From: Eledone cirrhosa
Lineage: Eukaryota
Length of the DNA: 64,000 nucleotides
NCBI GenBank assembly: GCA_964016885.1
Contig: OZ024740.1
Location: forward strand, 199,082,001 to 199,146,000
Direction of reading: 5' to 3'
In this document: positions 18,653 through 47,367 of the stretch, one piece after another
Numbering within the stretch: position 1 is the stretch's first letter
How the letters are laid out: each line of letters starts with the position of its first letter
Made by a program: the position numbers and the translations under genes
Notes under the pieces: model-generated
What the model was told of the DNA's origin: nothing
What the model saw: the letters and a program-made list of their open reading frames with translations, nothing else
The model's database searches: none

Positions 18653-18931
18653 ATCGTTTCTGAATTTGTTTAGCAAGAAACACAATGGCGTAGGACAGAA
18701 CAAAGGAGAGGCGCAAAAACAAAGAAAAGAATCCCCAGTCACTGAAGAGCTCACAGATGTGTGACGAAAGAACTTTGACAATATATAAACAACTATCTGG
18801 TTGTGGAACCAACCAACCAACCAGAAATTTTTAAATTCCTAAATTTATAAATTTATTATAATATATTGAAGTGAAAGGAACTGGTGCATGTGTTTCTTAT
18901 TGGCAACATGACCCTCCCAAAGTATAACAAT
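18653..18931 (+). mobile_element. Mini PLE-B insertion: inverted tail fragment joined to a pLTR with HHR
   Basis: 18653-18678 is the reverse complement of the tail at 47341-47367; gtca CTGAAGA gctcacagatgtgtgac GAAA gaac TT tgac (18738-18779); ends ataacaat|(AT)n. Confidence 0.8.
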
Positions 18932-18984
18932 ATATATATATATATATATATATATATATATATATATATATATATATATATATG

Positions 18985-19503
18985 TGTGTACGTATGGATT
19001 CACCGAACATTTATTATAATTCTCGGTGTGTTTGTAAACAAACATCCCGTATTAAGCCGTAGTGTCTAGCAACCATCGTTGCTCGTTTGTTCAACACGCT
19101 GTACTAGTTTCAAGCGTATTAGCTATTGTCAGGAACATATACCTTTCTGCCAGATTGTTGAACGTATATACTTACCTTATGCATATTAATGGCTGAGTAG
19201 CCCAATCTGCATATCGAGTGGGTTAATCGGCCGGGTGCACCGAAAACGATAAACAGAAAAATGAAACCAAATTTCATTTTCTACTCTTTGTACGGCTGTT
19301 ACTTAAATACAAGTATGTACCCGTACATACATATATGTATACAGAAGTACTACTGTACGTCTGAATACATATATGTATGTACGTGTACATACTTGTATTT
19401 AAGTAACAGCCGTACTAAGAGTGGGAAATGAAATTTCGTTTCATTTTTTCCGTTTATCGTTTTAGGTGCACCCGGCCGATTAACCCACTCGATATGCAAA
19501 TTG
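18985..19503. mobile_element. Inverted pair of the ~420 bp retrozyme-like family
   Basis: 18985-19350 is the reverse complement of the 53.3-54.4 kb unit (core mutated to CTGACAA); 19350-19503 is a forward partial unit, forming a hairpin centred at ~19350. Confidence 0.8.
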
Positions 19504-19521
19504 TATATACATATATATATA

Positions 19522-43559: not shown

Positions 43560-43995
43560 TCAAAATTGGCTTGGTCGAATTTTCCGGGTTTACCCCATTC
43601 TCCCTCTCCGGATGTTTCTGTAATCCATTGCTGCTTTCAGGTCTTTGATATTTAAACCAACATATTTCGTCAGTTGATCGACATAAGATACCATAGGATG
43701 CCCGATGCGAGAGTGTCCGTGGGTTGGCATTCGCAAAAGAAAACTGCTAACAAGCTCGACATTGCTTCGGTTGCAATACCCAACTATCTTATCCTTAAAT
43801 AAAGGTGTATGCAGGAGGAATCTGTCTATATACACCCTCTTTCGAGGAATGCTGCTTCTGGGACCTGTTCAACACTACGTTTAGAGTTCTGGTGTATGTC
43901 CCACCAAGCTTCGTCTCTAGTCTTTGTGTCATTTTCCATACTGAGAAGCCATAAAAAAGAACCCACTCAATAACAGCTCTGACGAAGCCTCCGCA
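43560..43995 (-). mobile_element. RTE-type LINE 3' fragment
   Basis: RAVIEWVLFYGFSVWKMTQRLETKLGGTYTR and GYCNRSNVELVS...PTHGHSRIGHPMVSYVDQL match the RTE C-terminal pattern. Confidence 0.75.
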
Positions 43996-44311
43996 TTATT
44001 GTATTTGTTTTACAAGATTCTTTGAGGAAAAACTTACGTTGAGACATATACTGTTATATTTTGCGCTGGATATGTTGCCAGTAAAATCACAAGTACTAGT
44101 GGACTTCACTTCAAGTTTATTATGAGATAAAAACGTAACCCATTCATTTACATTCGAAATGAAAATTAGGGCTAAGAAGGTTTTCTCGATCATATCTTTC
44201 TAGCATAGATAGATAACTACATGCATGTACACACACACACGCGCGCGCGCGCAAACACTCACACACACACACACACACATACACACATGTATAAATATAT
44301 ATATATATATA

Positions 44312-47300
44312 TTGTTATACTTTGGGAGGGTCATGTTGCCAATAAGAAACACACGTACCATATGCTTTCACTTCAATTTATTATAATAAATTTATAAATT
44401 TAGGAATTTATAAATTTCCGGTTGGTTGGCTGGTTCCAAAACCAGATGGTTGCTTATATATTGTCAAAGTTCTTTCGTCACACATTATGTGACCTCTTCA
44501 GTGTCTCAGGGTTCTTTTCTTTGTTTTTTGTGCCTCTCCTTTGTTCTGTCCTTCACCATCTTGTTTTTGTGCGAGTGTTGTGTGCTTAGTTTGCGCATGT
44601 GTTACATCCGGGTGTCTGTGTGTGTTTATATTTGTTTATTTATTTGTTTATTTACATGTCACTGGTTGTTTGTTTTTTCTATGTGCGTGTGTGTTTTTAT
44701 TTTGTCCTTAATTGTAAGTTGTGATGCTGCTGTTCCACTCATGTTTTCTATTTAATTTCGGTTGTAATTCATTTATGTTTATTGCCTCTGTGATTTGTCT
44801 AAACATTGCGTCTTTTCTGTGTGTAGATTCTATTGTTATTTCTATGTCCTCTAATTTACCCTTATGTTCTATTTTAGCATGTTGATAGAGTACAGATGAT
44901 ACTTTACTATCTTGAAGGTCTCGCCAATGTTCATTTATCCGTTCCCCTATACTACGAGCTGTCTCACCTATGTACACTATATTTTTATCTTTACATTGTC
45001 CTTCAGTACATCTTATGCTATATACTACATTTCTAGTTTTACAGTTAATATGGGGGCTTAATTTACAGATTATGCATTTCTTATCTATACAGGGAGGTCT
45101 TTGAAAAGGGTATGTATTGCTAATAAGTGTTTTTATGGAGCTACCTGGTCTTTCTACTATCTTAATATTAAGTTTAAGTTTATATACGGCCCTTCTAAAT
45201 GTTTAGCTAATTCACATCTAGGGTTGTATTTATGCACATTACACTCTAGTATTAAAAGGGTATGTATTGCTAATAAGTGGTACCTGGAGGTACCTGGTCT
45301 TTCTACTATCTTAATATTGAGTTTATTTTTATCTAGGGCCCTTCCAATTGTGTAAGCTAATTCACCTCTAGGGGTTGTATCGATGAACATTACACTCTGG
45401 TATTTATTGCTATCATACCATGAGTTTTTTCTATTAGCCTTATTCCTAGTTCTTTCTATTCTATTCCAAAATGTGCTCCTATACAAGGGGCAGGTCTCAT
45501 TTGTATAATTATTTACAAGTTTTTCTCATTTGGTTCTGGCTCCTCTATACACTCTGATTTTATCTCTCTGATTGTAACCAGAGAACTGCATACGCTGGAC
45601 AAAGTGTTGTATGTGTCTCTCTAGTTCTTCGGGTTTGCACATGCGGGACACGTTTTTCATCACCCGTACCAAATCCGCAATCAGTATGTTGATTTTGGTA
45701 TGGTCCGAAACAGCTGAGATTCGGTGGATCAGATATTTGGAAGCCATGGGTTTGGCATAATGGGAATGGAGGATTTATTTTTTGTTATTAATGGTATCTA
45801 ACCAGAGCTCTGTGTCTAGTACAGGTAATCGATGGTTGGGGTATTTGCTTGGGTAGTCTATAGTAACTCTAATACTCTGGTGGGTGGAGTTAGCTATTTG
45901 CTGGATGCTTTCAATTGTGCTTTTCTCTAATTCCTGACTGTTTTCTAGTGGGGGTGTTTTAACTACGATGTTTACATCATCAACGTAGCGGGAGTACATT
46001 ATCAGGGTTAAGGGTCTTCTAATTGTTCTTTAAGTTTAAGTTTAAGTCTACTGTCCCACCATACCATGAATAAGTTAGCTATGTCACCTGCAATGCTAAC
46101 ACCAATGGTTGCTCCCTCCTCTTGGGCATATGTTTTTCGATTAAATTTGAACATATGTTCCTTAAGGGTTAATTTTATGCTGGCTCCCACCGCATGTGCA
46201 ATCATTTTCTTTAATTCTTCGTGGTTTTCGGGGGTCCGTATGGCTCTGGTCCACCCGTTCTATCTATCTGTGTGGGTTGTCTTGGCCATTGAGGTAATGG
46301 TAGGTGATCTGCCTCTTGCTGGTCTTGTAGGGCACAGGTTGCTAAGGTTATATGTGTCTAGATAATTATTACTATAGGTAAGTTTAAGTAGGAGTACCAG
46401 CTCACTAGTATCAATCTCACGGAATTCAACATTGCTCTCACTGATCATTTCTACGCATTTCTCCACAGCAAAATCCACGCCAATAGATGGATACAGGGAC
46501 ACAAGACATACCCTTTTCAAAGACCTCCCTGTATAGATAAGAAATGTATAATCTGTAAATTAAGCCCCCATATTAACTGTAAAACTAGAAATATAGTATA
46601 TAGCATAATATGTACTGAAGAACAATGTAAAGATAAAAATATAGTGTACATAGGTGAGACAGCTCGTAGTATAGGGGAACGGATAAATGAACACTGGCGA
46701 GACCTTCAAGATAGTAAAGTATCATCTGTACTCTACCAACATGCTAAAATAGAATATAAGGGTAAATTAGAGAACATAGAAATAAAAATAGAATCTACAC
46801 ACAGAAAAGACGCAATGTTTAGACAAATCACAGAGGCAATAAACATAAATGAATTATAACTAAAATTAAATAGAAAACATGAGTGGAACAGCAGTATCAC
46901 AACTTACAATTAAGGACAAAATGAAAACACACACGCACATAGAACAAACAACCAACCAGTAACATGTAAATAAACAAATAAATAAACGAATACAAACACA
47001 CACAGACACGCGGATGTAACACATGAGCAAACAAAGCACACAATACACACACACAAAAACAAGATGGCGCAGGACAGAACAAAGGAGAGGCACAACCAAC
47101 AAAGAAAAGAACCCCCATTAACTGAAGAGGTCACATAATGTGTGACGAAAGAACTTTGACAATATATAAATAACCATCTGGTTGTGGAACCAACCAACCG
47201 GAAATTTATAAATTCCTAAATTTATAAATTTATTATAATAAATTGAAGTGAAAGCAGCTGGTGCGTGTGTTTCTTATTGGCAACATGACCCTCCTAAACT

Positions 47301-47367
47301 ATAACAATATCGGTTTCAACATACGTTTTCAGATAAAGAATCTTGCTAAACAAATTCAGAAACGAAA
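44312..47367 (-). mobile_element. PLE-B foldback: long arm 44312-46505 (-), short arm 46506-47308 (+) plus ~55 bp tail
   Basis: RT pieces SLYPSI, QEEGATIGVSIAGDIANLFMVWWD, YSRYVDD, LPVLD; endonuclease YIGETARSIGERINEH in both arms; HHRs at 44462-44504 (-) and 47118-47161 (+). Confidence 0.93.
44708..46505 (-). pseudogene. Fragmented PLE-B RT, thumb and GIY-YIG
   Basis: ORF pieces 46260-46520, 46008-46205, 45775-45999 (YVDD), 45526-45747, 45157-45486 and 44708-44977. Confidence 0.88.

What the first reader, a model, noticed from the sequence alone, without database searches (positions are those of the whole stretch)
18653..47367. Reproducible terminal asymmetry: one arm stops at AACAAT, the other carries a ~35-55 bp tail
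In PLE-B foldbacks the left end is (TA)n|ttgttat (19522, 38318, 44312), while the opposite end runs past aacaatat into a homologous tail (23113-23168, 39391-39425, 47309-47367; ..gctaaacaaattcagaaacga). At 18653-18931 the polarity is reversed and the tail arm is only ~25 bp, yet the rule of one tail end plus one AACAAT end holds. Unpaired ~100 bp extensions at 16302-16397 and 55045-55145 may be analogous. Established: PLEs have a short 3' tail beyond the pLTR. Inference: two distinct priming sites are used, one per target end.
Basis: partly seen in the sequence, partly recalled or inferred. Interest (0 to 1): 0.72.

Follow-up and report, generated by a model that had tools for sequence, protein, structure and literature searches.

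The report
One-sided tail of Penelope-like insertions
These are mirror-image insertions of a Penelope-like jumping gene in TA repeats whose two arms almost always end differently, one with and one without a 57-base tail; this is a known feature of the class that likely reflects two neighbouring start points for copying, each used once per insertion.

Summary
All four two-armed elements in the window have one end at AACAAT and one end with a tail.

In the host genome, about 54,000 ends match the terminal motif, split roughly evenly between tail-less and tailed. In 21.3 Mb, adjacent outward-facing end pairs no more than 5 kb apart were 43 mixed, 4 tail/tail, 0 short/short and 1 untyped. After inspection, 71 of 75 two-armed insertions are mixed. 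A second sample gave 17 of 17.

The tail is codons 9-27 of the element's ORF. This is the layout described for PLE tails.

One-armed insertions use either end type (22 tailed, 29 short). The rule is therefore mutual exclusion within one insertion.

Best reading: both nicked target strands prime reverse transcription, one at each of two adjacent start sites.

The one-sided tail (PMC3846280, PMC8557442) and the two start sites in vitro (PMC11167929) are already published. Only the strength of the coupling seems new. This scan has already described the same insertion shape on other DNA, including another piece of this genome.

The two ~100-bp "extensions" are not analogous.

The parts
18654..18674 (-). 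Element D, tail arm. It holds only the last 21 nt of the tail (reverse complement) and abuts (TA)n.
   Evidence: The same string ends the tails of element C and of 40+ genomic copies.
18675..18931 (+). Element D, tail-less (S) arm. A 257-nt 5'-truncated copy that ends AACAAT|(AT)n.
19522..22590 (-). Element A, long arm. It carries a decayed RT and GIY-YIG coding region, and its 3' end is tail-less at 19522.
   Evidence: (I3).
22591..23111 (+). Element A, inverted 5'-truncated arm, 97% complementary to 19519-20041.
   Evidence: (I3).
23112..23168 (+). Element A tail, 57 nt, A-type.
   Evidence: The same tail is seen in L004, L018 and L036.
38317..38600 (-). Element B, tail-less arm. The inner junction is approximate.
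38601..39390 (+). Element B, arm that carries the tail. It includes the GIY-YIG coding end and the 3' UTR.
   Evidence: (I18, D15).
39391..39420 (+). Element B tail, shortened to about 30 nt by an internal deletion.
   Evidence: One search compared.
44312..46501 (-). Element C, long arm with RT coding remnants. Its 3' end is tail-less at 44312.
   Evidence: (I2, D19).
46502..47308 (+). Element C, inverted arm. The first Met of the ORF (ATG of ATGACCCTCC) is at 47285-47287.
47309..47365 (+). Element C tail, 57-59 nt, C-type. It corresponds to codons 9-27 of the ORF.
17741..18155 (-). One-armed copy of the same family. It has a tail-less 3' end at 17741, and its 5' truncation abuts (TA)n with no second arm.

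Best explanation
In this genome, two-armed Penelope-like insertions in (TA)n carry a tail-less end (...AACAAT) on one arm and a 57-59-nt tail on the other in about 95% of cases. This likely arises because each of the two nicked target strands primes reverse transcription at a different one of two adjacent start sites on the element RNA.

Shown here:
- The element is an RT plus C-terminal GIY-YIG retroelement with a 4147-bp tandem unit.
- Its ORF starts 24 nt before the short (S) site. The tail is codons 9-27, so the tail (T) site lies about 81 nt into the ORF.
- S and T ends are about equally common genome-wide.
- Within one two-armed insertion they are almost mutually exclusive.
- One-armed insertions use either site.
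- The lengths of the two arms are unrelated to each other.
- The two arms of a locus resemble each other more than they resemble other copies.
- Junctions between arms show 0-7 nt of overlap or 1-61 nt of filler.

Inferred:
- An RNP cuts both strands of the TA repeat.
- One 3' end starts cDNA at the S site and the other at the T site of the same RNA-protein complex, so each site can be taken only once.
- The two cDNAs are then joined by template switching or microhomology.
- Both sites are followed by AU-rich bases (AAUAUCG at both sites in the C-type; AUAU and UAU in the other type). These could pair with a TA-repeat primer.
For: Anatomy of the window elements.

Genome counts:
- 28,030 motif matches with a 12th flank base of A or T, against 3 control matches. 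None of the first 100 listed carries a clear tail (one ambiguous flank).
- 25,976 matches with a 12th flank base of G or C, against 0 control matches. Of the first 100 listed, 89 are tail junctions.

Pairing:
- 43 S/T, 4 T/T, 0 S/S and 1 ambiguous among 48 divergent pairs 5 kb or less apart. p = 1.4e-9.
- 2 of the 4 T/T pairs are tandem arrays. Their true outer end is tail-less (L138, L139).
- 'Unpaired' ends re-examined by BLAST map. Of 34 known-T ends, 9 have a tail-less partner arm and 0 have a tailed one. Of 49 known-S ends, 13 have a tailed partner, 5 of them truncated inside the tail, and 2 have a tail-less partner.
- Curated total: 71 S/T, 2 T/T, 2 S/S.
- Replicate on one exact sequence variant in C1:21.34-65.58 Mb: 17 of 17 S/T, or 15 counting a local triplication once.

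Single-event origin: the partner arm is the single best match among 46-72 other arms in 13 of 34 loci. The foldbacks with the most similar arms (arm identity 0.98 or more, for example L003, L010, L021, L029) are all S/T.

Tail is coding.

Literature:
- PMC11167929 (main text read). RT starts at two adjacent internal sites that bound the tail, and both strands are cleaved and extended.
- PMC3846280 (passages read). [quoted passage not shown]
Against: - In vitro, the published PLE showed no difference in start site between top and bottom strands, and its start sites had no homology to the cut DNA (PMC11167929). Coupling has therefore not been seen directly.
- If both cDNAs ran on one RNA with the S-primed enzyme leading, the S arm should tend to be the longer one. 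It does not: medians are 231 and 258 nt, S is longer in 18 loci and T in 21 of 41, Wilcoxon p = 0.97.
- Four exceptions exist: L044 and L051 are T/T, and L086 and L123 are S/S.
- The curated tally rests on my reading of BLAST maps. 7 partners were indeterminate.
- The sample is 65 Mb of one contig, not the whole genome.
- No RNA or biochemical data are available for this family.
Confidence: 0.6

Rival explanations
1. One start, one finish. A single continuous cDNA is primed at the tail site, switches template to make the second arm, and ends by run-off at a fixed template end that lies at AACAAT (for example the 5' end of an antisense or processed template). Every two-armed product would then have one tailed and one tail-less end.
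For: This model gives the S/T rule without any coupling between two enzymes. Use of an antisense template was proposed for PLE inverted repeats in PMC3846280 (discussion passage read). Some junctions are small palindromes or have near-equal arms (L008, L009, L030, L037).
Against: 29 one-armed tail-less copies have precise AACAAT ends and variable 5' ends. Under this model they would require priming at random places on an antisense RNA. In vitro, both sites act as initiation sites (PMC11167929). Either arm can be the longer one, so snap-back on the first cDNA cannot explain half of the loci.
Confidence: 0.12
2. Symmetric intermediate, asymmetric resolution. All cDNAs start at the tail site, and the element's GIY-YIG nuclease, which recognises the tail, later removes the tail from one end.
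For: [quoted passage not shown] PMC11167929 reports earlier work in which the tail was needed for EN recognition.
Against: Trimming would have to be exact to the base in about 30,000 copies and then be followed by rejoining to (TA)n. One-armed copies are about half tail-less. Direct initiation at both sites was observed in vitro (PMC11167929).
Confidence: 0.12
3. The pairs are two independent insertions into the same TA repeat, or tail-less ends are tailed ends that later lost the tail through decay.
For: TA repeats are hit repeatedly. Convergent neighbours and nested copies are seen.
Against: Independent events would pair at random, as the convergent controls do (5 S/T, 2 S/S, 1 T/T). The arms of one locus are each other's best match in 13 of 34 loci. 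Arms abut with no TA repeat between them. The foldbacks with the most similar arms are already S/T.
Confidence: 0.02

Closest known systems
EN+ Penelope-like element insertions with an inverted pLTR and a one-sided tail (Arkhipova et al. 2013, PMC3846280; Craig et al. 2021, PMC8557442)
   Same: - One ORF with RT followed by a C-terminal GIY-YIG domain.
- Partial tandems.
- An adjacent inverted 5'-truncated copy.
- A short extension on only one of the inverted ends.
- An ORF start that lies inside the repeat, so the tail is coding.
- Insertion into (TA)n.
- An Asn-rich insert in the ORF.
   Different: - The tail is 57-59 nt here, against the 30-40 nt described.
- The papers say 'optionally' or 'often' at one end. 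Here the exclusivity is measured at 71 of 75.
- Most copies here are very short stubs, with a median arm of about 240 nt.
Internal initiation at two adjacent sites in the Anolis Poseidon element PAc (Frangieh et al. 2024, PMC11167929)
   Same: - Two start sites bound the tail.
- The sites lie shortly inside the ORF (111-118 nt there; 24 and about 81 nt here).
- Both DNA strands are used.
- The target is AT-rich.
   Different: - That work is biochemical. This report reads only the genomic record.
- There, start-site use did not differ between strands and the site had no homology to the primer.
- Here the two sites are almost never used twice in one insertion, and both are followed by AU-rich bases that match the TA target.
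L1 twin priming (recalled from memory; named in the abstract of PMC2837659 in the listing)
   Same: Both nicked strands prime cDNA synthesis, which gives an inverted segment joined by microhomology.
   Different: In L1 the two segments come from different, non-overlapping parts of one RNA, and the second priming site is arbitrary. Here both arms hold the same 3' terminal sequence and start at two fixed sites.

Membership tests
Canonical EN+ Penelope-like elements | A single ORF with a reverse transcriptase followed by a C-terminal GIY-YIG endonuclease | tested here: met
   Translation of a tandem-array copy reads the RT motifs (SMDVVSLYPS, QNEGAAIG, YVDD) followed by VVYSIRC...YIGETARS. Pfam matches are below their cut-offs: RVT_1 E = 1.1e-4, 22.4 bits against a 29.6-bit cut-off, and GIY-YIG E = 0.067. 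The nearest Atlas clusters carry RVT_1, GIY-YIG and HTH_animal, score 0.97.
Canonical EN+ Penelope-like elements | A CCHH motif inside the GIY-YIG core, and in Neptune/Nematis a CX2-5CxxC motif upstream of it (as described in PMC8557442) | tested here: met
   Read by eye: CTNRKCIIC upstream, two Cys between VVY and YIG, and H..HH after it. No profile test was run.
Canonical EN+ Penelope-like elements | RT placed in the PLE/TERT clade by phylogeny | not tested
   No tree was built. The PDB sequence search gave only weak RT hits, E = 0.04 or higher.
Canonical EN+ Penelope-like elements | Partial tandem copies forming pLTRs, often with an adjacent inverted 5'-truncated copy | tested here: met
   Tandem array of period 4147 bp (L052, L139). 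Composite of tandem plus inverted arm (L138/L006). 71 two-armed insertions.
Canonical EN+ Penelope-like elements | [quoted passage not shown] | tested here: met
   Tail of 57-59 nt on one arm. It is codons 9-27 of the ORF.
Canonical EN+ Penelope-like elements | A hammerhead ribozyme motif in the pLTR | tested here: inconclusive
   Rfam gives no hammerhead match at gathering score or at E of 10 or less on 46800-47400. By eye, CTGAAGAG-GTCACA...TGTGAC-GAAAGAAC at about 47123-47156 fits the minimal PLE hammerhead described in PMC4209133 (passages read). It was not modelled.
L1-type twin priming | Inverted and direct segments derive from non-overlapping parts of one RNA | tested here: not met
   Both arms contain the same terminal sequence. 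Overlap was 60-200 nt in 34 of 41 loci.

The most novel reading that the evidence does not exclude
The near-absolute pairing of one tailed with one tail-less end records the stoichiometry of the integration complex. One RNP, probably a dimer, holds one RNA. It places its two polymerase sites 57-59 nt apart at the ORF start, and each site fires once, one per cut DNA strand. The PLE 'tail' would then be the footprint between the two active sites. This coupling was not seen in the published in vitro assay.
Probability: 0.35. Interest if true: 0.6.

Novelty: new member of a known kind. Interest (0 to 1): 0.4.

Why it matters
How Penelope-like elements integrate is still largely unknown. The one-sided tail is their signature, and a biochemical explanation appeared only in 2024.

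This family has tens of thousands of short, fairly well preserved insertions in one genome. It gives a large natural sample showing that the two start sites are not drawn independently within one insertion. Any model of the integration complex has to meet that constraint, and it can be tested in the existing in vitro system.

For genome annotation, the result explains why these TA-repeat foldbacks have unequal ends. It also shows that stubs as short as about 45 bp belong to the same family.

Tried and rejected
- **Leader/follower on one RNA.** This predicts that the tail-less arm is at least as long as the tailed arm. Not supported.
- **A stable RNA hairpin spanning the tail that would bring the two sites together.** Folding the tandem junctions of two subfamilies gave only weak structures that the two types did not share. 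No claim is made.
- **Rfam search for hammerheads.** Nothing found.
- **Pfam on decayed ORF pieces of element A.** Only sub-threshold hits.
- **PDB sequence search.** Only weak RT hits.
- **RNA evidence.** No RNA holder was listed for the tandem junction. The 6 runs listed are of unrecorded kind and kept as contigs, and none was laid.
- **The 16302-16397 and 55045-55145 'extensions' as analogues of the tail.** Rejected.
- **Whole-genome pairing.** Pattern searches list only the first 100 places, so pairing could be done only for C1:0-21.33 Mb and, for one variant, C1:21.34-65.58 Mb.
- **Rows dropped before the arm-length and identity analyses.** 10 of 51 fetched pairs were left out:
  - L006, L031, L044, L051 (T/T class);
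  - L019, L046 (8-9 kb apart, unrelated copies);
  - L022, L045, L050 (nested or partly unaligned);
  - L023 (ambiguous end).
- **Further restriction.** 7 of the remaining 41 had arm overlap under 60 nt and were left out of the identity test.
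Full report
**What is in the window.** The window lies in a 3.0-Gb genome at G000:C1:199082001-199146000 and is full of (TA)n tracts. Four two-armed elements of one repeat family sit in such tracts.

- Element A: 19522-23168
- Element B: ~38317-39420
- Element C: 44312-47365
- Element D: 18654-18931

Each has a left arm in antisense and a right arm in sense orientation (inverted repeats I2, I3 and I18). 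In A, B and C the left arm stops at ...AACAAT (AACAG in A) against the TA repeat. The right arm runs past AACAAT into a tail of 57-59 nt, or about 30 nt in B through an internal deletion.

In D the polarity is reversed. The tail arm consists only of the last 21 nt of the tail, joined straight to a 257-nt sense copy that ends in AACAAT.

A fifth copy at 17741-18155 has one arm only and a tail-less end.

**What the element is.** Element A carries decayed coding sequence on the minus strand, with only sub-threshold Pfam hits.

A tandem array of a sister subfamily elsewhere on the contig (L052, period 4147 bp) gives open frames of 552 and 675 codons.

- The 675-codon frame reads RT motifs (YVDD and others).
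- It then reads a CX4CxxC motif.
- It ends with a GIY-YIG core holding two Cys and a His pair. This is the endonuclease layout that PMC8557442 describes for Neptune/Nematis-type PLEs (passage read).
- Pfam RVT_1 is below its cut-off (E = 1.1e-4).
- The nearest Atlas clusters carry RVT_1, GIY-YIG and HTH_animal at score 0.97.

I did not build a tree, so clade placement is untested.

**What the tail is.** In tandem arrays the tail is simply the continuation of the unit (L052, L031 and L064; L138/L006).

The conserved ATGACCCTCC just before AACAAT holds the first Met of the long frame. AACAAT ends codon 8, and the tail is codons 9-27.

The peptide is conserved between the two subfamilies ([27 protein letters not shown]... 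against [27 protein letters not shown]...).

This matches what is published:
- In Adineta vaga the pLTR holds the first 12 aa and, with the tail, the first 22 aa (PMC3846280, passage read).
- In the Anolis element the two start sites lie 111-118 nt into the ORF (PMC11167929, main text read).

**Is the asymmetry more than chance?** I searched the genome for ATGACCCTCC-N6-8-AACAAT plus 12 flanking bases.

- Flank ending in A or T: 28,030 matches, with 3 for the reversed control. None of the first 100 listed has a clear tail; one flank was ambiguous.
- Flank ending in G or C: 25,976 matches, with 0 for the control. Of the first 100 listed, 89 are tail junctions, 8 are tail-less and 3 are ambiguous.

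By extrapolation, tail-less and tailed ends are roughly 30,000 and 23,000.

Both lists are complete for C1:0-21.33 Mb. That interval holds 189 ends: 96 S, 89 T and 4 ambiguous.

| Neighbour type, 5 kb or less apart | S/T | T/T | S/S | Ambiguous/T | Total |
|---|---|---|---|---|---|
| Divergent (-,+), the orientation of a two-armed insertion | 43 | 4 | 0 | 1 | 48 |
| Convergent (+,-), which cannot be one insertion | 5 | 1 | 2 | 0 | 8 |

With the observed end frequencies, independence predicts 23 S/T, 14 T/T and 10 S/S. The binomial p is 1.4e-9. The tailed end is on the left in 18 and on the right in 26 of the 44 S/T pairs of 10 kb or less (my count from the list).

**Inspection of the sequences.** I fetched all 51 pairs of 10 kb or less and 85 of the 87 unpaired ends. 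The other two unpaired ends lie inside the tandem array L052.

Of the four T/T pairs:
- Two are internal junctions of tandem arrays. Their true outer end is tail-less (L138 position 3929 and L139 position 5653), so they are S/T overall.
- Two are genuine T/T (L044 and L051).

The ambiguous ends are tail-less ends in non-TA targets or diverged copies (L023, L046, L084).

Many 'unpaired' ends do have a second arm that the exact pattern missed. These classes are my reading of the BLAST maps.

| Known end | n | Tail-less partner | Tailed partner | Partner indeterminate | Internal tandem junction | No second arm |
|---|---|---|---|---|---|---|
| T | 34 | 9 | 0 | 2 | 1 | 22 |
| S | 49 | 2 (L086, L123) | 13 | 5 | 0 | 29 |

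Among the 13 tailed partners of known-S ends, 8 have 45 nt or more of the tail. The other 5 are cut off inside the tail after 5-40 nt, as in window element D (L067, L085, L088, L125 and, weakly, L132). Both S/S loci are old copies. In L123 the second end sits at an internal ACAACAAT|AT 24 nt upstream.

My curated total is 71 S/T, 2 T/T and 2 S/S (p = 3e-17).

**Replicate.** I repeated the test with one exact subfamily variant. It has 3,904 tailed and 6,268 tail-less matches genome-wide. In C1:21.34-65.58 Mb it gave 17 of 17 S/T among divergent pairs of 5 kb or less, or 15 if a locally triplicated 178-bp foldback counts once.

**Constraints on mechanism.**

1. Arm lengths, measured without the tail in 41 clean S/T loci, show no order. 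Medians are 231 nt for S and 258 nt for T. S is longer in 18 loci and T in 21. Wilcoxon p = 0.97 and Spearman rho = 0.11. A simple model in which one enzyme trails the other on one RNA is therefore not supported. Snap-back on the first cDNA cannot explain the half of loci in which the other arm is longer.
2. The two arms of a locus are each other's best match among 46-72 other arms in 13 of 34 loci. The foldbacks with the most similar arms are already S/T. The structure is therefore made in one event, and the tail-less end is not a decay product.
3. Junctions between arms show 0-7 nt of overlap or 1-61 nt of filler, and sometimes a short palindrome. This is as expected for template switching or microhomology-mediated joining.
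4. One-armed insertions use either site (22 T, 29 S). Neither site is reserved for a first or a second strand. What is excluded is using the same site twice.
5. The sequence after both sites is AU-rich. In the C-type both sites read AAUAUCG. In the other type they read AACAAUAUCUG and CCGCUAUGG. Shorter tail variants end at ...AAACAAAT|AT or ...AAACT|AT. This suggests that pairing with the TA-repeat primer fine-tunes the start. That is inference, and it differs from the Anolis element, where no homology was seen.

**Best reading.** Both strands of the TA target are nicked, and each 3' end primes cDNA on the element RNA. One primes at the site after codon 8 and the other at the site after codon 27, and each site is available once per complex. 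The cDNAs are then joined.

- The two start sites and the use of both strands are published biochemistry for another PLE (PMC11167929).
- The coupling is what the genomic record adds.
- That one complex with one RNA is responsible is my inference (confidence 0.6 for the overall reading, about 0.35 for the one-complex version).
- The rivals cannot be excluded from sequence alone: a single cDNA with a fixed start and a fixed finish, or nuclease trimming of a symmetric intermediate.
- Independent insertions or later loss of the tail are contradicted by the data.

**Comparison with what is known.**

[quoted passage not shown] - My two literature searches found no paper that quantifies the pairing or reports mutual exclusion of the two sites. 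Subscription journals and supplements were not searched, and Arkhipova 2006 was not available to me.
- Earlier notes of this scan describe the same insertion shape in this and other genomes.

The feature is therefore a member of a known kind. The measured strength of the rule and the either-site use in one-armed copies are the modest new content.

**Not analogous.** 16290-16400 is one copy of a separate ~110-nt repeat that also sits beside TA tracts. It has 9 further copies at 85-100% identity (7 over 108-111 nt, the rest 58-98 nt) in the 0.83 Mb I had fetched. 55040-55150 follows an unrelated ~600-bp inverted repeat and has no other copy in those loci.

Noticed in passing
window 17741-18155: A one-armed copy of the same family. 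It has a tail-less end at 17741, and its 5' truncation abuts (TA)n with no second arm. It shows that the 'one of each' rule applies only to two-armed insertions.
   Followed up: partly
window 16290-16400; also L139, L113, L019, L106, L125, L043, L086, L056: A separate ~110-nt repeat ending ...CTCACCTCCTACAT next to TA tracts. There are 9 further copies (85-100% identity) in 0.83 Mb of fetched loci. It could be another TA-repeat-targeting element or a stub of one.
   Followed up: partly
arms of L001-L049 and of the window copies (for example window 18675 and 47060): The inner (5') ends of arms cluster 240-280 nt before AACAAT, around AAGATGGCG and just upstream of the hammerhead-like motif: 12 of 82 arms fall there. 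This may mark a common RNA 5' end or a strong stop.
   Followed up: partly
window ~47123-47156, ~18744-18775, and ~22868-22900 (A-type): The motif CTGAAGAG-GTCACA...TGTGAC-GAAAGAAC looks like the minimal hammerhead described for PLE pLTRs. Rfam does not match it even at E of 10 or less.
   Followed up: partly
L052 (translation); window 21886-22420, minus strand: A long Asn-rich stretch inside the ORF, upstream of the RT. It resembles the N-rich inserts reported in Adineta vaga Penelope ORFs (PMC3846280).
   Followed up: no
window ~11380-15340: A large inverted repeat with arms of 1081 nt or more at 99% complementarity, separated by 1.4 kb. It belongs to an unrelated element and does not end in TA repeats.
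   Followed up: no
window 19289-19501 and 53225-54400: A ~210-nt internally palindromic repeat lies directly to the left of element A. It is related to three tandem ~410-bp units at 53.2-54.4 kb.
   Followed up: no
G000:C1:42149506-42150391 and C1:34853592-34854880: A 178-bp S/T foldback is locally repeated about three and a half times with a period of roughly 270-300 bp. Separately, five tail-less ends form an array with a ~313-bp period. Both suggest that stubs can be amplified as local tandem repeats.
   Followed up: no
L044 positions ~655-700 (G000:C1:~19309780): A complete two-armed insertion only about 44 bp long. It has a 31-nt tail-less arm joined to the last 13 nt of the tail. L085 and L132 are similar mini-insertions.
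   Followed up: partly
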